Assembly: GCA_963667145.1 (NCBI GenBank) | Contig: OY762943.1 | Span: 49,576-113,575, forward strand | DNA: 64,000 nucleotides | Reading direction: 5' to 3' | Origin: Candidatus Cloacimonadota bacterium | GTDB lineage: Bacteria; Cloacimonadota; Cloacimonadia; G963667145 | Part shown: positions 2,627-23,462 of the stretch, piece by piece | Position numbering within the stretch: position 1 is the stretch's first letter | How the letters are laid out: every line of letters starts with the position of its first letter | Position numbers and translations under genes: made by a program | The notes under the pieces: model-generated | Database searches by the model: none | What the model saw: the letters and a program-made list of their open reading frames with translations, nothing else | What the model was told of the DNA's origin: nothing

Positions 2627-3232
2627 CTATTGAGTAATTTCCACTATTCCCACTTGATTTCTAATCTTTACTATATTTTGATTTTCTAATCTCGACAATG
2701 GATAAAGCACATAGCCAGCCCCATTTGTTTTTAGGCATCTTTTGATAGTTGAAAACACATCTTCCTGATTGCATTCTATTTCGAATCGTGCAATTTGTTT
2801 GCCTTTGTCTTTTGGCATTTTGCCTGAATTTTGGGGATAGAAAGGTGGATTGCAGATTACGAGGTCAAATTTTTCGATGTAAGTTCTCAAATCTTCATGA
2901 AAAAAATCGACTTCCAATCCACAGATTTTTGAGTTGTAGTTTGCGAGTTGCACGAGATTTTCTTGGATGTCTATTCCTATTATCTGCCAGTTTGGTCTGG
3001 AGAGTTTTAGCATAAAGCTCAATACTCCACAACCACAGCCAATGTCCAAAACCTTCAAGCAATCTTGAGGATGATTTTCCAGCACCGTTTCTACTAAAAA
3101 ATTTCCATCACTGGAGATAGCTTGTTCGGACGGAGATTGGTAGATGATTTTTTTGTTCGGCAGAGAGATTTTTTTTAAATTAGCAGAATTTATAAAATTG
3201 TTGTTTTCCAATTGAGTTACAAATTTATCCAA
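2627..3232 (-). CDS. SAM-dependent methyltransferase, tRNA1(Val) m6A37 (TrmN/YfiC)-like
   Basis: LDIGCGCG motif I and NPPFY motif IV; overlaps the hisH end. Confidence 0.75.
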   Translation of the reverse strand: MDKFVTQLENNNFINSANLKKISLPNKKIIYQSPSEQAISSDGNFLVETVLENHPQDCLKVLDIGCGCGVLSFMLKLSRPNWQIIGIDIQENLVQLANYNSKICGLEVDFFHEDLRTYIEKFDLVICNPPFYPQNSGKMPKDKGKQIARFEIECNQEDVFSTIKRCLKTNGAGYVLYPLSRLENQNIVKIRNQVGIVEITQ

Positions 3233-3813
3233 TTTCTTAATAGTTGCAATCCCATTTCTCCGCTTTTTTCGGGATGAAATTGGGTTCCAAACACATTCCC
3301 TCGTTGCAAGATAGCACCAAAATTTACATCGTATGTGCAGGTCGCCAAGATGTCTTTTTCGGTTTTTGCATTTGGGTAGAAGCTGTGAACGAAGTAGAAA
3401 TCGCTGTCATTTGGAATACTTGCAAATAATGGATGCTTCTTTTCATAGTGGACTTGATTCCAGCCCATTTGGGGAACACGCTGACAGGTAAATTTTTCGC
3501 AATTTCCTTGGAAAAACCCAAATCCTTCCGATGATGGTGCTTCGGAGCTACTTTCCATAAGGAGTTGAAGTCCGACGCATATTCCCAAGAAAGGTTTATC
3601 TTGTTTAATCCATTCCAGAAGCTCGGAGTAGCAGCCTGAGTTTTGCAGTTTGGTGGACGCTTGTCCGAAATGTCCGACGCCAGGCAAGATAATTTTGTCG
3701 GCTTTTTTTAGTTCGTTTGGCGAATTGGTTATCACATATTTTGCATCGAGATAACTAAGAGCGTTCTTTACCGAATGCAGATTTCCGGCTCCGTAGTCGA
3801 TGATGGCTATCAT
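3217..3813 (-). CDS. hisH: imidazole glycerol phosphate synthase glutaminase subunit
   Basis: IAIIDYGAGN, LPGVGHF, GICVGLQ (catalytic Cys), FHPEKSG. Start placed at ATG 3813. Confidence 0.95.
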   Translation of the reverse strand: MIAIIDYGAGNLHSVKNALSYLDAKYVITNSPNELKKADKIILPGVGHFGQASTKLQNSGCYSELLEWIKQDKPFLGICVGLQLLMESSSEAPSSEGFGFFQGNCEKFTCQRVPQMGWNQVHYEKKHPLFASIPNDSDFYFVHSFYPNAKTEKDILATCTYDVNFGAILQRGNVFGTQFHPEKSGEMGLQLLRNWINL

Positions 3814-4664
3814 AAGCTCTCCTTGTCGTTTTTCATCAGGATGTACGAGCCAATGTCCAATCCGATGTGATTTGCGATGACTTGGCACTTTGCTTTGAGG
3901 AAGAAATAAATCGGCAAATTTGTGTCGGAGAGCGCTTCATAATTGCCTTGCCCTTTGCTGATGATGAGGTCGGCATTTTCCAAATTTTCTCTAAATTCTG
4001 TTGAACACATTTTTGGAACAGTTCCAGGAATTTTAGCACCTGAGCTGACGACAGTAGCAACTTCATCAATTCCGATTTTTTTTGCCCAATCCACTGTGAT
4101 GTCGTTGATAACAGGAATTTCTCGAGTGGCGTAAGTCACTGGTTTGTCTATTTGTTCGATAAATATTTTGTCAAAAACACCTTCGGCTGTGTTGTCTCCG
4201 AGATAGATGATAGATTTAGCTTTTTGAATATCTTGTTTGAAATTTTTGAAGTCGTCTATGGCGAATTTGGCGGAGATTACGTTTTTGATTTCGCTTTCCA
4301 AATCGAATTCCAAGCAAGCTCCCAAATCTATCACATTTCCTGCGATTGCCAGCCTTGTAGCTGTGAAAAGTTTGTCGTTTGAGTTGTCTAAAATCTCGTG
4401 TATTTTGGGCAACAAACTCTGAGCTTTGGCAACGTTTGCTTGTTTGATTTCGGCATAAGGGTCTTCGTTTTTCAAGTAATCTTTCAGATTGGAATGGATG
4501 AAGTGAGCGATTTCTGGCGAAGTGGAATCCATGTCGATTTTTGCAAAAAGAGAGCCAGTGAAATCGACAATCTTTTTCTGTGTCTGTTCGTCCAAGTTCG
4601 ACAATCTGGCAAGGTGCAGAGTTTGTTTCAAAAAGCAAGGAAAACAGTCCAAATAGGCTTTCAT
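3810..4664 (-). CDS. damage-control phosphatase, DUF89/ARMT1 family
   Basis: N-terminal CFPC, AIAGNVIDLG, GDN..E, NDIT, SKGQGNYE and LKAKC motifs. Confidence 0.88.
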   Translation of the reverse strand: MKAYLDCFPCFLKQTLHLARLSNLDEQTQKKIVDFTGSLFAKIDMDSTSPEIAHFIHSNLKDYLKNEDPYAEIKQANVAKAQSLLPKIHEILDNSNDKLFTATRLAIAGNVIDLGACLEFDLESEIKNVISAKFAIDDFKNFKQDIQKAKSIIYLGDNTAEGVFDKIFIEQIDKPVTYATREIPVINDITVDWAKKIGIDEVATVVSSGAKIPGTVPKMCSTEFRENLENADLIISKGQGNYEALSDTNLPIYFFLKAKCQVIANHIGLDIGSYILMKNDKESL

Positions 4665-5251
4665 ATGCTTCCTTTTGTGGAAGGAATTTTATCGGTGGCT
4701 CTGGGCAGATAGTTGCAGGCAAAACGGAGAGATTTTGCTAAGGCTTTGAAACACGCTTCCAATTTGTGATGGTCGCTACGACCGTAAGGCATTCTGATTA
4801 CAAGATTTGCAGGAATATTTTGTGCAAAACTCTCAAAAAAGTCAGGCATCAAGTCCAAATCGAGTTCTCCGCAGAATTGTCGCTCAAATTTGCAATCGTA
4901 TTGTAAATAGGCTCGTCCGCCCAAATCCACAGCGACCACGGCGAGAGCTTCATCCATGGGATATACGAAATATCCGCTTCTTTCGATGCCTTTTTTGTCG
5001 CCGAGAGCTTGGCAAAACGCTTGTCCCAAAACGATTCCCAAATCTTCCACAAGGTGATGTTGGTCAACGTGCAGGTCGCCTTTAGCCTTGATTTCCAAGT
5101 CGAAGAGACCGTGCTTTGCAAGACCTTCCAACATGTGGTCGAGAAATCCGATTCCAGTGCCGATTTGTGCGGTTCCTTCGCCGTCAATGTTCAAGATTAT
5201 TTCGATTTCGGTCTCGTTGGTCTTTCGTGAGATAGTGGATGTTCTTGCCAT
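4661..5251 (-). CDS. hisB: imidazoleglycerol-phosphate dehydratase (monofunctional)
   Basis: RKTNET, FLDHML, DQHHLVED, PMDEA, DHHKLEA metal-binding motifs. Confidence 0.96.
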   Translation of the reverse strand: MARTSTISRKTNETEIEIILNIDGEGTAQIGTGIGFLDHMLEGLAKHGLFDLEIKAKGDLHVDQHHLVEDLGIVLGQAFCQALGDKKGIERSGYFVYPMDEALAVVAVDLGGRAYLQYDCKFERQFCGELDLDLMPDFFESFAQNIPANLVIRMPYGRSDHHKLEACFKALAKSLRFACNYLPRATDKIPSTKGSI

Positions 5252-5261
5252 TTTCGTGCCT

Positions 5262-6923
5262 CTATCCTAAGATTAAATCTGTTATTTCAGTAATGTCGCT
5301 AATGTAGTAGTCGGTTTTTGGATGCTCCATCAGGCTGATATTTGTGCAGTTAGCGTCAAGCGAAGAGAGAACATCGTCGATGGTGTCGCCGACATAAACT
5401 ACCAGTTCTGCACCGCTTTTTTCTTTGATAAGGTTTATTCCGTATCCGCTTGGTTTGGATTTTTCGCCTGTGTCTTCTTGACCGATTGTCCACGAGAAAA
5501 GGTCTTTCACACCGAAAAAATCGAGGGCGTATTCTATGTCTTTGTTCGGTCTGCCAGAGAAAATAGCCAGTGGAACAGTTTCTTTTATTTTCTGCAAATC
5601 GCCAATCGGAAGAAGCCATTTTTCCGATTTCTTGTTGTCGCTATAGTATGCCTCGAATTTGTCTATAAGCTCTTGCTTGTCGATAGTGATGTTTCGTTTT
5701 TGCAGGGCGTATTCGGTCAAATCCCAATCACAATTGTAGCCACCCAACTTGCGAATTTCGTTGATTTCGTCCGTGGTGATTTCTTCGCCTGAGTAGTGAG
5801 CGACCGTGTCTTTGATGGACTTTATATAGGACAAATCGACGTCGATGAGTGTCCCATCCATGTCAAAAACAAGCAGTTTGTTCTCCCAGAGTTTTTTGAA
5901 TTCGGTGCGGAATATTGCATTTTCTTCGGGAGTTCCCATAGAAATTCGCAAGTAGTTTTTCAGCATTGGGTTGCTTCCCTGATGACGCACCATTATCCCT
6001 TTTGAGTACAGCGAAGAAAAAACTTCTTTGCTCCAAATTCCTGTTTTTACAAGGATAAAATTGGTTTCGCTTGGCAAATATTTTATATTTAAAGAATCAA
6101 AAAAATGTTCGAGTTTGCGTTTTTCCTCTTTGACGGTAGCCAAAATGTGTTGGAAGTGGTTTTGGTCGAGCAAAGCTATTTGAGCCGCTTTTAGCGAAAA
6201 ATGGTTAACTCGGAAGGGCAGTGTAACTTTTCTCAATTGGTTCATAGTTTTTGGGTTAGCCGTGGCAAAGCCAATTCGATGTCCAGCGAGAGCGTAAGCT
6301 TTGGAAAAAGTTCTTAGGACGATAATATTTTCGTGAGTCAAAACTAAGTCCCAAAGTTCCTCGCGGGAAAAATGTACATACGCTTCATCCAGCACCAATA
6401 GTGTGTCGGGGGCATTGGTCAAAATTTTCTCGACTGTTTCCCTGCCAAGCATATCTCCAGTTGGATTGTTTGGATTTACGAGGATAATCATTTTAGGATT
6501 GGTTTTAGCTTTTTCCAAAAATTCCTCTGTGGGGAAATTCAAATCTTTGTCGTAGCAGACTTTGTCCGCAATTGCTCCTTTGATTTGTAGCAATAGGTAA
6601 TAGACGGAAAAGGTCGGGAAAGGAATGAGCACTCTGTCGCCCTCTGAGATAAAGGCCTCCAAGATTAGTGTGATTGCTTCGTTGGAACCGTTGCAAACCA
6701 AAAAATATTCGGGGTCAATTTTGTAATAATCAGCTAAACTCTCGATTAAAGAATCTTCCTGAGGGTAAATGCAGGACAAGGTCGAGTCGAATTTGAGGTC
6801 TTTGAGCTTCGGTGTAGGAGGCAGATTGACTTCGTTGAAGTCTAAGCGAATTTTGTCAATTCTATCCGAAGGTGGAGCTTGATATTGTGCGACTTTGTCC
6901 AAAATCGGTTTCGCTTTTATCAT
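5262..6923 (-). CDS. hisC: histidinol-phosphate aminotransferase fused to a C-terminal HAD-family phosphatase
   Basis: Residues ~1-345: NPNNPTG, DEAY, RTFSKAYALAGHRIG. Residues ~350-553: FDMDGTLID, SGR, KSKP, VGDTIDD. One uninterrupted frame. Confidence 0.9.
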   Translation of the reverse strand: MIKAKPILDKVAQYQAPPSDRIDKIRLDFNEVNLPPTPKLKDLKFDSTLSCIYPQEDSLIESLADYYKIDPEYFLVCNGSNEAITLILEAFISEGDRVLIPFPTFSVYYLLLQIKGAIADKVCYDKDLNFPTEEFLEKAKTNPKMIILVNPNNPTGDMLGRETVEKILTNAPDTLLVLDEAYVHFSREELWDLVLTHENIIVLRTFSKAYALAGHRIGFATANPKTMNQLRKVTLPFRVNHFSLKAAQIALLDQNHFQHILATVKEEKRKLEHFFDSLNIKYLPSETNFILVKTGIWSKEVFSSLYSKGIMVRHQGSNPMLKNYLRISMGTPEENAIFRTEFKKLWENKLLVFDMDGTLIDVDLSYIKSIKDTVAHYSGEEITTDEINEIRKLGGYNCDWDLTEYALQKRNITIDKQELIDKFEAYYSDNKKSEKWLLPIGDLQKIKETVPLAIFSGRPNKDIEYALDFFGVKDLFSWTIGQEDTGEKSKPSGYGINLIKEKSGAELVVYVGDTIDDVLSSLDANCTNISLMEHPKTDYYISDITEITDLILG

Positions 6924-7777
6924 AAGATTACCTTGCTCAAATTATATTCCAAGATGTCGCAAGCTCCCCATTTTTTCAGCTTTGGCAATAAATCGGGGAC
7001 GTCTTTGGTGTCCAAAGTGATTTTTACGGCATAGCCAGCGTCTCTTGCCAGTGGCATCACTGTAGGCGATTTGAGGCACGGAAGTCTATCGATAATCTCT
7101 TTTTTGTCGTTGGGAATGTTCATCTCTATCATCGATTTGTTTCTTCCCAAAAGAATTGCCTCAAAAAGCATTTTCATCTCCATAATCTTTTCGTGCTTCC
7201 ATGGGTCGTCCAAAGCTGAATTTGATGCCACGAAGTTGGTGGCTGATTGTACCAGAGTGCCGACTATTTTTAAGTTGTTGTCTCTTAGGGTGTTACCTGT
7301 AGAGGTGTTGTCGATAATCATATCTGCGTCTTCGGGCGGATACACTTCTGTTGCTCCGTGCACCGTCAGAAATTTGTAGTTGAAGCCTTGTTTATCCAGC
7401 CAATCGGTGGCAATCTTTTTGTATTCGGAAACTACGATGATTTCTCTATTTTTTAGCTCCTCAAGCGAATAGTTTTCTGGAATGGCAGCCACTATTTTCA
7501 CGGGGTTAAGTCCCAAAGGCAAAATGGTGGTGATTTGGTCGGAAACTTCCGATTCCATTATCCAGTCTTCGCCACTAAATCCGATGTCGTGTCTGCCAAA
7601 AGCCAAAAGGTTGGCGATATTGCGAGGTTTCATGATTTTCACGATGAGGTCGTCTTTATTTGTTGCCGGACGCAAACCTCTGCCACTGAGGGTCAGGCTA
7701 ATTCCTGCTTCAGCCAGCAAATCTTTTACTTGATCAAAAATTCTTCCTTTCGGCAAAACTAAGTTTATTTTTTTCAT
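6920..7777 (-). CDS. hisG: ATP phosphoribosyltransferase, long form
   Basis: LVLPKGR, GATEV, DMIIDNTSTGNTLRDN, and a C-terminal regulatory domain. Confidence 0.94.
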   Translation of the reverse strand: MKKINLVLPKGRIFDQVKDLLAEAGISLTLSGRGLRPATNKDDLIVKIMKPRNIANLLAFGRHDIGFSGEDWIMESEVSDQITTILPLGLNPVKIVAAIPENYSLEELKNREIIVVSEYKKIATDWLDKQGFNYKFLTVHGATEVYPPEDADMIIDNTSTGNTLRDNNLKIVGTLVQSATNFVASNSALDDPWKHEKIMEMKMLFEAILLGRNKSMIEMNIPNDKKEIIDRLPCLKSPTVMPLARDAGYAVKITLDTKDVPDLLPKLKKWGACDILEYNLSKVIL

Positions 7778-7787
7778 TTTCTTCCTT

Positions 7788-8114
7788 CTATTTGGCTAAA
7801 ATTTCTTCTATTTCTTTGATGGTCTTTAGAATATTTTTTTTTAATGTAGCTCGCTCAAAATCGATTTTAACTTCATCTCTTTTGTCTTGGCTATTCAACA
7901 CTTTTTTTGCTCCCTTGATGGTATAACCTTGGGTGTGAAGCATATACTTGATTTTTTCAAGCAGTTTTATCTCTTTTTTGCTGTATTGACGCTTTCTTCC
8001 CGAGAGTTTACTTGGAGAGAGTTGCTTGAATTCGTTTTCCCAATATCGAACGGTGTAATCTGGCAATTTCAAAAGATTACAGACTTCTCCAATCGAATAA
8101 TATGTCTTTTCCAT
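7788..8114 (-). CDS. MerR-family HTH transcriptional regulator
   Basis: YYSIGEV...TVRYWENEF...RQYS...GYTIKGAK. Start placed at ATG 8114. Confidence 0.88.
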   Translation of the reverse strand: MEKTYYSIGEVCNLLKLPDYTVRYWENEFKQLSPSKLSGRKRQYSKKEIKLLEKIKYMLHTQGYTIKGAKKVLNSQDKRDEVKIDFERATLKKNILKTIKEIEEILAK

Positions 8115-8261
8115 ACTACGGTGAACGAAACAGGGAGGTACTATGTTGTAAAGTGTAAATTCCAAAATTTTTGGTTGACAGCACACGAAGACAAATGAGA
8201 TTAAAATTGTTTTTTATGGATTGTTTTGTTTGTCTGAAAGATTGGCGATAGAGGTTGTTTT

Positions 8262-22199: not shown

Positions 22200-23462
22200 A
22201 TGATTAAAATTATTGGAAGCAGGGAGTTACCCGCTAATTTTTTTGCTCCTTTGGATTATAGCGGAGAGGATGCAGTTTTAGAGATTTTGGACGATGTCAA
22301 ATCCTATGGCGATAGAGCTATCAGGAAATATTCCCAGAAATTTGACGGAGTTGATTTAGATAAGTTTTTAATATCAAGTTCGGAGATAAGCAACGCTTAT
22401 TCGTTTTTGTCGAGCGAGCAGATAGAGGCGATTGAGTATTCTAAAAATAATTTGGAGAAATTTGCCAAGGCTCAGCTTGAGCAGTCCAAAAATTTTGAAC
22501 TGGAGACGGATAAAGGAGTTTGGTGTGGGCAGAGAGTTGTCCCTATTGAGAATGTGTGTGTGTACGCTCCTGGTGGCAATTTTCCTTTGCCATCTTCCGT
22601 GTTGATGGGCGTTGTTCCTGCCAAGGTGGCTGGTTGCAAGCGAATTGTGGTTTCTTCGCCTCCGTGTTTCCGAGGCTCTGTGCATCCTGCTGTGTTGGTT
22701 GCTGCGGACATTGCAGGGGCTGACGAGGTTTACGCTGTGGGAGGTGTGCAGGCGATAGGTGGATTTGCTTTTGGTTCGGAGAGTTTGCCTCGGGTCGATT
22801 TGATAGTTGGTCCTGGGAATAAATATGTTACGTTAGCCAAAAAAGCTGTGTATGGTGTAGTCGGCATCGACTTCATTGCAGGTCCATCGGAAGTGATGAT
22901 TATTGCTGACAAGGTTGCCAATCCTGAGTATATAGCGGCGGATATGTTGGCACAGGCTGAGCACGATGTCAACGCCAGTGCCTATTTGCTGACGGATGAC
23001 GATTATCTTGCGAAGAGTGTGAGTGTGGAGTTGGAAAAGCAGTTGAACAATTTGACAACACGAGATATAGCCAACCAATCTATTGAGAACAACAGTTATA
23101 TCGTTGTTTGCGAAGATTTGCAAGAGGCTGTGTCTATTTCCAATCGCAAAGCTCCAGAGCATTTGGAGTTGCAGACTGTTTGCAATAACGTCTTGTTGCC
23201 TCAGCTGACCAATTATGGATCGCTGTTCATCGGAGAGCAGTCTGTGGAGGCTTTGGGCGATTATTCTGCGGGAGTAAATCACACTTTGCCGACAGGTTTG
23301 TCTGCACGTTACACAGCCGGTTTGTCGGTGAACAATTTCATCAAAAAACAAACGACTTTGAGAGTGGAGGGAGCGAAAAAGGTTACGGAAGTTGCGGGAG
23401 TTTTTGCCAAGATGGAAGGCTTGGATGCTCATAGCAAATCTGCATTGAAGAGACTAGAATAG
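22200..23462 (+). CDS. hisD: histidinol dehydrogenase
   Basis: [45 protein letters not shown]. Confidence 0.95.

What the first reader, a model, noticed from the sequence alone, without database searches (positions are those of the whole stretch)
5262..6923. HisC aminotransferase fused to a HAD phosphatase: probable bifunctional enzyme for two consecutive steps
Seen: one 553-aa frame with an intact PLP domain (SKAYALAG) followed by a complete HAD domain (DMDGT, SGR, K, GDTIDD; also GGYNCDWDL). The hisB here is monofunctional and has no phosphatase domain. Known: HisC makes histidinol phosphate, the next step dephosphorylates it, and some archaeal HolPases are HAD enzymes; the textbook fusion is HisN-HisB. 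Inference: a HisC-HolPase fusion that could channel substrate.
Basis: partly seen in the sequence, partly recalled or inferred. Interest (0 to 1): 0.6.

Follow-up and report, generated by a model that had tools for sequence, protein, structure and literature searches.

The report
HisC fused to histidinol-phosphate phosphatase
One gene in this bacterium's histidine operon joins the enzyme that makes histidinol phosphate to a phosphatase domain that very probably removes that phosphate in the next step; this fills the pathway's only gap, but the phosphatase family has already been assayed in archaea.

Summary
Window 5262-6923, minus strand, is one uninterrupted 553-aa gene. Residues 1-345 are a true HisC (TIGR01141 above cutoff, the only one in the genome). 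Residues 346-553 are a complete HAD-IA phosphatase.

The 1.54-Mb complete genome has every other histidine gene but no PHP, IMPase or HisB-N phosphatase.

The same HAD family recurs in his operons:
- fused to HisC in 138 of the proteins collected;
- free-standing exactly between hisC and hisB in Acidobacteria;
- fused as HisC-HAD-HisB.

It carries five of the six substrate-binding fingerprint residues of nmHisN, the assayed Nitrosopumilus enzyme (Kinateder 2024). The sixth, D25, is Ile here and Arg in most relatives, a subtype nobody has assayed. I could not compare it directly with nmHisN.

Substrate channelling is untested.

A DUF89 phosphatase is translationally coupled between hisB and hisH. 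It is conserved in a relative whose fusion protein is only 43% identical. Its role is unexplained, and it is the main rival.

This scan found the same fusion before on other DNA. I found no paper describing it. It is a useful annotation and a new variant of a known enzyme kind, not a new enzyme.

The parts
5889..6923 (-). HisC domain (residues 1-345): histidinol-phosphate aminotransferase. The PLP lysine is K208.
   Evidence: TIGR01141 scores 282.9 bits against a cutoff of 276.55. It is the only over-cutoff hisC in the genome. N152, D179, Y182, K208, R216 and R326 are invariant in 27 fused homologues. omega is 0.076 against the closest genome.
5265..5888 (-). HAD-IA phosphatase domain (residues 346-553), the proposed histidinol-phosphate phosphatase. 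The stop codon is at 5262-5264.
   Evidence: HAD_2 E 1.3e-17. The best NCBIfam hit is TIGR01548, 102 bits, below the 140.2 cutoff. All four HAD motifs are conserved across 330 relatives. The model has pLDDT 95.7 and matches HAD-IA folds at Z about 23. omega is 0.055.
6920..7777 (-). hisG, long form. Its stop overlaps the hisC start in an ATGA.
   Evidence: HisG plus HisG_C domains. Junction sequence.
4661..5251 (-). hisB, monofunctional imidazoleglycerol-phosphate dehydratase. It starts 10 nt after the fusion gene's stop.
   Evidence: IGPD 207.9 bits. NF002111 scores 255 against a cutoff of 231. There is no phosphatase domain. Junction sequence.
3810..4664 (-). DUF89/ARMT1-like metal-dependent phosphatase, with ATGA overlaps to both hisB and hisH.
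   Evidence: PF01937 E 8.7e-63. It is conserved at this position in 5 of 5 genus genomes and in the distant syntenic locus L131. omega is 0.039. Junction sequences.
3217..3813 (-). hisH. The true start is the ATG at 3813-3811, after an AAGGAG Shine-Dalgarno.
   Evidence: TIGR01855 232.7 bits. Start read from the sequence.
2627..3232 (-). Small SAM-dependent methyltransferase (MTS/HemK-like), the last gene of the conserved cluster.
   Evidence: PF05175 E 9e-17. It is syntenic in L131 at 46% identity.
7788..8186 (-). MerR-family regulator immediately upstream of hisG.
   Evidence: PF13411 E 1.7e-18. It is syntenic in L131 at 54% identity.
22275..23453 (+). hisD (histidinol dehydrogenase), which uses the product of the proposed phosphatase. 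It lies about 15 kb from the operon.
   Evidence: TIGR00069 scores 489.8 bits at G000:C1:71850-73028, converted to window coordinates.

Best explanation
The gene encodes a bifunctional enzyme for steps 7 and 8 of histidine biosynthesis. The N-terminal PLP domain (HisC) transaminates imidazole-acetol phosphate to L-histidinol phosphate. The C-terminal HAD-IA domain hydrolyses that ester to L-histidinol by the usual Mg-dependent aspartyl-phosphate mechanism, with D354 as nucleophile and D356 as general acid/base. A helical cap holds the imidazole and amino groups through Y366, R391 and D399. The HAD domain belongs to the TIGR01548-like branch of the archaeal-type (nmHisN/toHisN) HolPase family. 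Shown here: domain identities, intact catalytic motifs, purifying selection, absence of other HolPase types, and the family's recurrent linkage to his operons. Inferred: the substrate itself. Unsupported so far: any channelling between the two active sites. The fusion at least fixes a 1:1 ratio of the two activities, with a linker of only a few residues.
For: 1. Domains and motifs.
2. The pathway is otherwise complete in a 98.65%-complete single-contig genome. hisG, hisB and hisH are in the operon, hisD is in the window, hisF is elsewhere, and a HisA-like/HisI/HisE fusion is elsewhere.
3. Other HolPase types were looked for and not found. There is no PHP HisJ (the best hit is 18.8 bits inside a 1150-aa frame) and no IMPase-family protein. 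The only HisB-N-like HAD-IIIA protein scores as GmhB (175.8 bits against 65 for hisB_Nterm), and GmhA is present.
4. Free-standing members of the same HAD family lie exactly between hisC and hisB in six Acidobacteria loci. About 50 weaker generic HAD hits in the same scan have no his neighbour.
5. A HisC-HAD-IGPD triple fusion sits in a complete his operon with no other phosphatase gene. Fused genes lie in his clusters of a Woesearchaeota MAG, a Gastranaerophilaceae (Melainabacteria) genome and unnamed contigs.
6. Kinateder et al. 2024 (PMC10804674) assayed Nmar_1556, a HAD encoded between hisC and hisB, as a specific HolPase and defined the fingerprint Y24-D25-K56-E64 plus I28 and I52. Mapped through the profile alignment to PDB 6iah, the 330 family members carry Y (312), I or V, I or V, K or R (327) and D (327) at five of these positions. 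This matches the paper's 'cluster II / delta-proteobacterial' logo.
7. omega for the HAD domain is 0.055 against the closest genome.
Against: No enzyme of this subtype has been assayed.
- The D25 equivalent is Ile367 here. It is Arg in 246 of 330 relatives and Ile in only 11. D25A cut nmHisN kcat/KM about 220-fold.
- The cap in the model has 4-5 helices, against the 7-9 reported for toHisN and nmHisN.
- The domain scores below the TIGR01548 cutoff (102 against 140.2).
- I could not align it directly with nmHisN or toHisN. The link runs through 6iah, whose identity as a Thermococcus enzyme I recall from memory, and through the published logo description.
- A second phosphatase (DUF89) is conserved in the same operon.
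Confidence: 0.8

Rival explanations
1. The DUF89 phosphatase between hisB and hisH is the main HolPase of this operon type, or shares the job. The HAD domain, weakened by Ile at the D25 position, is then auxiliary or acts on another phosphoester.
For: DUF89 is joined to hisB and hisH by ATGA overlaps. It is kept at this position in all 5 genus genomes. It is also kept in the seven-gene syntenic locus L131, whose fusion protein is only 43% identical. omega is 0.039. DUF89 proteins are metal-dependent phosphatases with varied substrates.
Against: DUF89 proteins 43-49% identical occur in 16 of 56 phylum genomes, none of which has IGPD. The closest non-genus homologues (50-54% identity) have no his neighbour in the 5 places read. 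No DUF89 gene was found in any of the other his clusters that carry this HAD family. The HAD domain keeps all catalytic and most fingerprint residues under purifying selection.
Confidence: 0.1
2. The HAD domain is a phosphatase for a different substrate, such as phosphoglycolate, phosphoserine or a sugar phosphate, and is fused to HisC for reasons unrelated to histidinol phosphate. HolPase activity would then come from a promiscuous enzyme such as the GmhB-like HAD-IIIA protein.
For: The second-best NCBIfam and PDB matches are phosphoglycolate phosphatases and beta-PGM-like enzymes. GmhB-type enzymes can have HolPase side activity (PMC9798254). The genome has one GmhB-like protein.
Against: Those matches are generic HAD-IA similarity, at 42 bits or less against 102 bits for TIGR01548. 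The family's linkage to hisC and hisB recurs in several phyla and in triple fusions. GmhA is present, so GmhB has its ordinary heptose role.
Confidence: 0.06
3. The fusion is an artefact: a sequencing or assembly frameshift has joined two genes.
For: None was found. Free-standing hisC and HAD genes do exist adjacent to each other in other lineages.
Against: The same continuous frame occurs in five complete genomes at 55-87% HAD identity. It also occurs in 138 proteins from unrelated samples. The junction has no gap in the 27-sequence alignment.
Confidence: 0.01

Closest known systems
nmHisN (Nmar_1556, Nitrosopumilus maritimus) and toHisN (Thermococcus onnurineus): archaeal-type monofunctional HAD histidinol-phosphate phosphatases (Kinateder et al. 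2024, PMC10804674; Lee et al. 2008 as cited there)
   Same: Both are HAD core enzymes with a single helical cap inserted after motif I. Both are encoded next to hisC and hisB. The fingerprint residues are shared: Y24 as Y366, I28 as I370, I52 as I387, K56 as R391 (R as in toHisN) and E64 as D399 (D as in toHisN).
   Different: Here the domain is fused to the C-terminus of HisC. The D25 position is Ile (Arg in most relatives). The cap is shorter, 4-5 helices against 7-9. This R/I-25 branch (TIGR01548-like) has not been assayed.
E. coli / Salmonella HisB (HisNB): histidinol-phosphatase fused to IGP dehydratase
   Same: It is a HAD-superfamily HolPase fused to another his enzyme inside the operon.
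   Different: It is a different HAD branch, the HAD-IIIA 'DDDD' type with a Zn-binding loop cap, related to GmhB. It is fused to step 6, not to the enzyme that makes its substrate. The HAD domain here gives no match to hisB_Nterm or TIGR01656.
TIGR01548 family HAD-type hydrolase (NCBIfam 'hypothetical equivalog')
   Same: It is the best model for the HAD domain. Free-standing members of the same family (P0145, P0151) pass its cutoff at 157 and 160 bits, and public records carry this name.
   Different: This domain scores 102 bits, below the 140.2 cutoff. The model carries no function.
PDB 6iah, 'Hydrolase', 240 aa. From memory, this is the Thermococcus thioreducens HAD phosphatase of Havlickova et al. 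2019; the paper is cited, but the link to the PDB code was not verified.
   Same: It is the best solved-structure relative by sequence, E 4.7e-25 against 1e-17 for the next HAD. It shares the SY...K/R...D cap signature.
   Different: It carries an extra stretch of about 25 residues in the cap. It has D at the position-25 equivalent. It did not appear among the top 50 structural matches.

Membership tests
HisC, histidinol-phosphate aminotransferase (TIGR01141) | Score above the curated equivalog cutoff | tested here: met
   282.9 bits against a cutoff of 276.55; 284.6 bits in the genome search.
HisC, histidinol-phosphate aminotransferase (TIGR01141) | PLP-binding lysine and conserved fold-type I residues | tested here: met
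   K208 (SKAY), N152, D179, Y182, R216 and R326 are invariant in 27 homologues.
HisC, histidinol-phosphate aminotransferase (TIGR01141) | Transaminase activity on imidazole-acetol phosphate | not testable with these tools
   This needs an enzyme assay or complementation. It is the only over-cutoff hisC in a genome with the rest of the pathway.
HAD superfamily phosphatase, subfamily IA (C1 cap) | Four catalytic motifs: DxD, S/T, K, and (G)DxxxD | tested here: met
   D354/D356, S456, K490 and D513/D517 are conserved in 330 relatives.
HAD superfamily phosphatase, subfamily IA (C1 cap) | Rossmannoid core with a helical cap between motifs I and II | tested here: met
   The model has pLDDT 95.7 with cap helices at 18-88. 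Z is 20-23.6 to HAD-IA structures over about 200 residues.
nmHisN/toHisN-type HolPase (Kinateder 2024) | Fingerprint Y24, K56 (or R) and E64 (or D), plus hydrophobic residues at 28 and 52 | tested here: met
   Y366, R391, D399, I370 and I387. The mapping goes through the 6iah alignment. Frequencies are and the definition.
nmHisN/toHisN-type HolPase (Kinateder 2024) | Aspartate at position 25 | tested here: not met
   Ile367 here. Among 330 relatives, R occurs in 246, D in 19 and I in 11. The paper itself leaves the R25 clusters as 'likely' HolPases.
nmHisN/toHisN-type HolPase (Kinateder 2024) | Significant direct sequence similarity to an assayed member | tested here: inconclusive
The family profile hits 6iah at E 4.7e-25; I identify 6iah as a Thermococcus enzyme from memory only.
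nmHisN/toHisN-type HolPase (Kinateder 2024) | Gene located with hisC and hisB | tested here: met
   It is fused to hisC and followed by hisB here. Relatives lie free-standing between hisC and hisB.
nmHisN/toHisN-type HolPase (Kinateder 2024) | Specific hydrolysis of L-histidinol phosphate | not testable with these tools
   This needs an enzyme assay.
TIGR01548 family HAD-type hydrolase | Score above the curated cutoff (140.2 bits) | tested here: not met
   102.4 bits for the HAD domain. Free-standing relatives score 157-160.
HisB-N / GmhB-type (HAD-IIIA, 'DDDD') HolPase | Match to TIGR01261 or TIGR01656 | tested here: not met
   The HAD domain gives no such match at E<=0.001. The genome's only TIGR01656 protein scores as GmhB.

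The most novel reading that the evidence does not exclude
This operon type (MerR-hisG-[hisC::HAD]-hisB-DUF89-hisH-methyltransferase) encodes two phosphatases with histidine-specific roles. The DUF89 enzyme, so far known only as a broad 'damage-control' phosphatase, would then have a dedicated job in the pathway. It could be a second, non-homologous HolPase that makes up for a HAD domain with Ile at the D25 position. It could instead remove a phosphorylated side product made around the IGPD, HisC or HisH steps.
Probability: 0.2. Interest if true: 0.6.

Novelty: new variant of a known kind. Interest (0 to 1): 0.4.

Why it matters
Histidinol-phosphate phosphatase is the step most often missing from automated reconstructions of amino-acid synthesis. 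GapMind scored it low-confidence in 28% of 148 prototrophic microbes.

Public records name these fused genes only for their aminotransferase half. Their free-standing relatives are called 'TIGR01548 family HAD-type hydrolase'.

Recognising the family as a HolPase would close that gap in many lineages: Acidobacteria, Melainabacteria, KSB1, Spirochaetota, DPANN archaea and this small-genome lineage.

The fusions also supply independent 'Rosetta-stone' support for the R25-type clusters that Kinateder et al. could call only 'likely' HolPases. A fusion of consecutive steps 7 and 8 is also a natural system for testing whether his-pathway fusions channel intermediates or only fix stoichiometry.

Tried and rejected
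1. **Fold search.** Foldseek and VIA-align returned only generic HAD-IA enzymes (phosphoglycolate phosphatase, beta-PGM, CbbY). They say nothing about substrate, and 6iah was not in the top 50.
2. **Named-genome scan.** The genome-contig scan with the HAD profile used a generic motif-I pattern. Only the top 11 of 80 loci were true family members. The window's own organism is withheld there.
3. **AICAR disposal by DUF89.** I asked whether DUF89 disposes of AICAR/ZMP because PurH is missing. A full-length purH is present (376.5 bits, positions 2-511), so I dropped the idea.
4. **DUF89 linked to a hydrophobic position 25.** P0009 and P0010 have Leu or Ile at that position, but no DUF89 in the stretches of their his clusters that I could read.
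5. **Compositional sign of recent transfer.** Operon GC (0.409) equals window GC (0.408).
6. **dN/dS.** dS is saturated for most genome pairs. Only the closest pair is quoted, and its dS is also high, 0.9-1.8.
7. **Maximum-likelihood tree.** The treekit run did not finish in time, so I used FastTree instead.
9. **Huang et al. 2016 (DUF89 paper).** It is not held.
10. **Not attempted.** I did not run a full-length or dimer model or a complex prediction. The dimer exceeds the size limit, and the tool returns no coordinates from which to measure the distance between active sites.

Full report
**1. Observation**

Window 5262-6923 holds one uninterrupted ORF of 553 aa on the minus strand. Pfam finds Aminotran_1_2 at residues 40-336 and HAD_2 at 352-528. 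NCBIfam puts the N-terminal part above the trusted cutoff of the hisC equivalog (TIGR01141, 282.9 against 276.55). It assigns the C-terminal part to the uncharacterised TIGR01548 family, at 98-102 bits, below that model's 140.2 cutoff.

The domain boundary, residue 345/346, falls at nt 5888/5889.

**2. Surroundings**

The gene sits in a tightly coupled minus-strand cluster:
- MerR regulator (7788-8186)
- hisG (6920-7777)
- hisC::HAD (5262-6923)
- hisB, IGPD only (4661-5251)
- a DUF89/ARMT1-like phosphatase (3810-4664)
- hisH (true start 3813)
- a small methyltransferase (2627-3232)

Three junctions are ATGA overlaps: hisG/hisC, hisB/DUF89 and DUF89/hisH. hisB starts 10 nt after the fusion's stop.

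**3. The genome lacks any other HolPase**

The window lies in a single-contig genome of 1.54 Mb, 98.65% complete.
- It has one true hisC, which is this gene.
- hisD lies about 15 kb away, inside the window.
- hisF lies elsewhere.
- One 444-aa frame carries HisA-like, HisI and HisE domains.

So nine of the ten steps are covered by recognisable genes.

For step 8:
- No PHP-type HisJ/K exists. The only hit is 18.8 bits inside a 1150-aa frame.
- There is no IMPase-family protein at all.
- The HAD domain gives no HisB-N match.
- The one HAD-IIIA protein in the genome scores as GmhB (175.8 bits) and not as hisB_Nterm (65 bits against a cutoff of 140). GmhA is present, so it has its normal heptose role.
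- The third HAD in the genome is a YjjG-type nucleotidase.

The only phosphatases linked to the pathway are therefore the fused HAD domain and DUF89.

**4. The HAD family is a his-operon family**

In an alignment of 27 fused proteins, down to 29% identity, the catalytic residues of both domains are invariant and the junction is ungapped in most.

A HAD-only profile finds about 700 cluster representatives at E<=1e-30. Among the best 150, roughly half are about 550-600 aa with the HAD at the C-terminus, and about a third are free-standing at 205-260 aa.

In named genomes, the free-standing form lies exactly between hisC and hisB (hisC-HAD-hisB-hisH) in six Acidobacteria loci. A Lysobacterales MAG has the fused form in hisG-[C::HAD]-B-H. 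About 50 weaker, generic HAD hits from the same scan have no his neighbour, which serves as an internal control.

Further contexts:
- P0031 is a HisC-HAD-IGPD triple fusion (IGPD 194 bits) in a complete operon, hisI-G-E-D-[C::HAD::B]-H-A-F, with no other phosphatase gene.
- A Woesearchaeota contig has hisG-[C::HAD]-B-H-A-[F/A::IE]-D.
- A Gastranaerophilaceae protein is followed by hisB.

A FastTree of 305 HAD domains needs about 38 changes between fused and free-standing forms, against about 100 for shuffled labels. So fusion or fission happened many times. The deep nodes are weak and the tree is midpoint-rooted. The window's protein lies in an all-fused clade of 11 with support 1.0.

**5. Link to assayed enzymes**

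Kinateder et al. 2024 (PMC10804674) showed that Nmar_1556, a HAD encoded between hisC and hisB, is a specific HolPase with kcat 0.79 per s and KM 73 uM. It had no activity on nine other phosphoesters. They defined the cap fingerprint Y24, D25, K56, E64, with I28 and I52 as accessory positions. toHisN has the variant Y-D-R-D. Their Euryarchaeota cluster II and some delta-proteobacterial homologues have Arg at position 25.

The HAD profile's best solved-structure hit by sequence is 6iah (E 4.7e-25, against 1e-17 for the next HAD). Its cap reads S-Y-D ... R ... D in register with the profile.

Through that alignment the fingerprint maps to Y366, I367, I370, I387, R391 and D399. Over 330 family members these positions hold:

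| nmHisN position | Residue here | Residues in 330 relatives |
|---|---|---|
| Y24 | Y366 | Y in 312 |
| D25 | I367 | R 246, D 19, I 11 |
| I28 | I370 | I or V in 312 |
| I52 | I387 | I or V in 318 |
| K56 | R391 | K or R in 327 |
| E64 | D399 | D in 327 |

This is the published cluster-II pattern. So the family is the un-assayed R25-type branch of the archaeal-type HolPases, and the window's clade is a small sub-branch with Ile at position 25.

Caveats:
- I could not fetch nmHisN or toHisN for a direct alignment.
- I identify 6iah as a Thermococcus enzyme from memory.
- The modelled cap has 4-5 helices, against the 7-9 described for toHisN and nmHisN.

The model itself is confident (pLDDT 95.7) and is an ordinary HAD-IA fold.

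**6. DUF89, the loose end**

DUF89 is kept between hisB and hisH in all five genomes of the genus, at 65-88% identity.

The nearest out-of-genus fused relative, P0008 (43% identity), has the same seven genes in the same order. Identities to the window's proteins are MerR 54%, HisG 62%, HisB 69%, DUF89 46%, HisH 58% and methyltransferase 46%.

Against the closest genome, omega is 0.039 for DUF89 and 0.055 for HAD, so both are under purifying selection.

The following argue against a dedicated HolPase role:
- DUF89 proteins 43-49% identical occur in 16 of 56 phylum genomes, none of which has IGPD.
- The closest non-genus homologues have no his neighbours.
- The other his clusters with this HAD family that I read lack DUF89.

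An AICAR-disposal role is not supported, because purH is present. The role of DUF89 here remains unexplained.

**7. Distribution in the phylum**

I searched 61 high-quality genomes of the phylum, spanning 27 genera. An earlier scan note calls the phylum Cloacimonadota; I did not check this. Both this HAD family and IGPD were found only in the window's genus, in 5 of 5 genomes, and in none of the other 56. The histidine pathway as a whole is therefore genus-specific in this sample. That suggests acquisition by transfer, although operon GC matches the genome.

**8. Novelty**

The papers I could search list the his fusions hisNB, hisIE, hisHF/HIS7 and HIS4, plus the Acanthamoeba heptafunctional protein. 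None mentions a HisC-HolPase fusion.

Public annotation names only the aminotransferase half.

This scan has reported the same fusion on other genomes several times, with the same reading. I reached that reading independently and tested it here.

**Verdict.** The fusion is a real, common but undescribed architecture. It uses an un-assayed branch of a known HolPase family. Channelling is not shown.

Noticed in passing
window 3810-4664 (-); also L131:3808-4623: A DUF89/ARMT1-like 'damage-control' phosphatase is translationally coupled between hisB and hisH. It is kept there in all 5 genus genomes and in a distant syntenic operon whose fusion protein is 43% identical. Similar DUF89 proteins also occur in relatives that have no histidine pathway. 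Its role in the operon is unexplained.
   Followed up: yes
own genome G000:C1:774223-775449 (-), outside the window (loci L110-L112): One 444-aa frame carries a HisA-like TIM barrel, HisI (PRA-CH) and HisE (PRA-PH), a HisA-HisIE fusion. A similar 407-aa His_biosynth+PRA-CH+PRA-PH gene sits in the Woesearchaeota operon (L130:10670-11893).
   Followed up: partly
phylum sample: IGPD and this HAD family were found only in the window's genus (5 of 5) among the 61 high-quality genomes of the phylum searched. Yet 38 of the 61, all outside the window's genus and so without IGPD, have an over-cutoff PHP hisJ_fam protein. In those genomes it cannot be serving histidine synthesis.
   Followed up: partly
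window 7788-8186 (-) and 2627-3232 (-): A MerR-family regulator directly upstream of hisG and a small MTS/HemK-like methyltransferase after hisH are both conserved in the distant syntenic locus L131. They appear to belong to this operon type.
   Followed up: partly
L127:7001-9301: A 766-aa HisC-HAD-IGPD triple fusion (P0031) covers steps 6, 7 and 8 in one polypeptide, inside a complete his operon. The profile survey also lists other proteins of about 750-765 aa.
   Followed up: partly
L130:5216-5830: A His_Phos_1 (phosphoglycerate-mutase-like phosphatase) gene lies about 600 nt upstream of hisG in the Woesearchaeota his cluster. It may be a coincidence.
   Followed up: no
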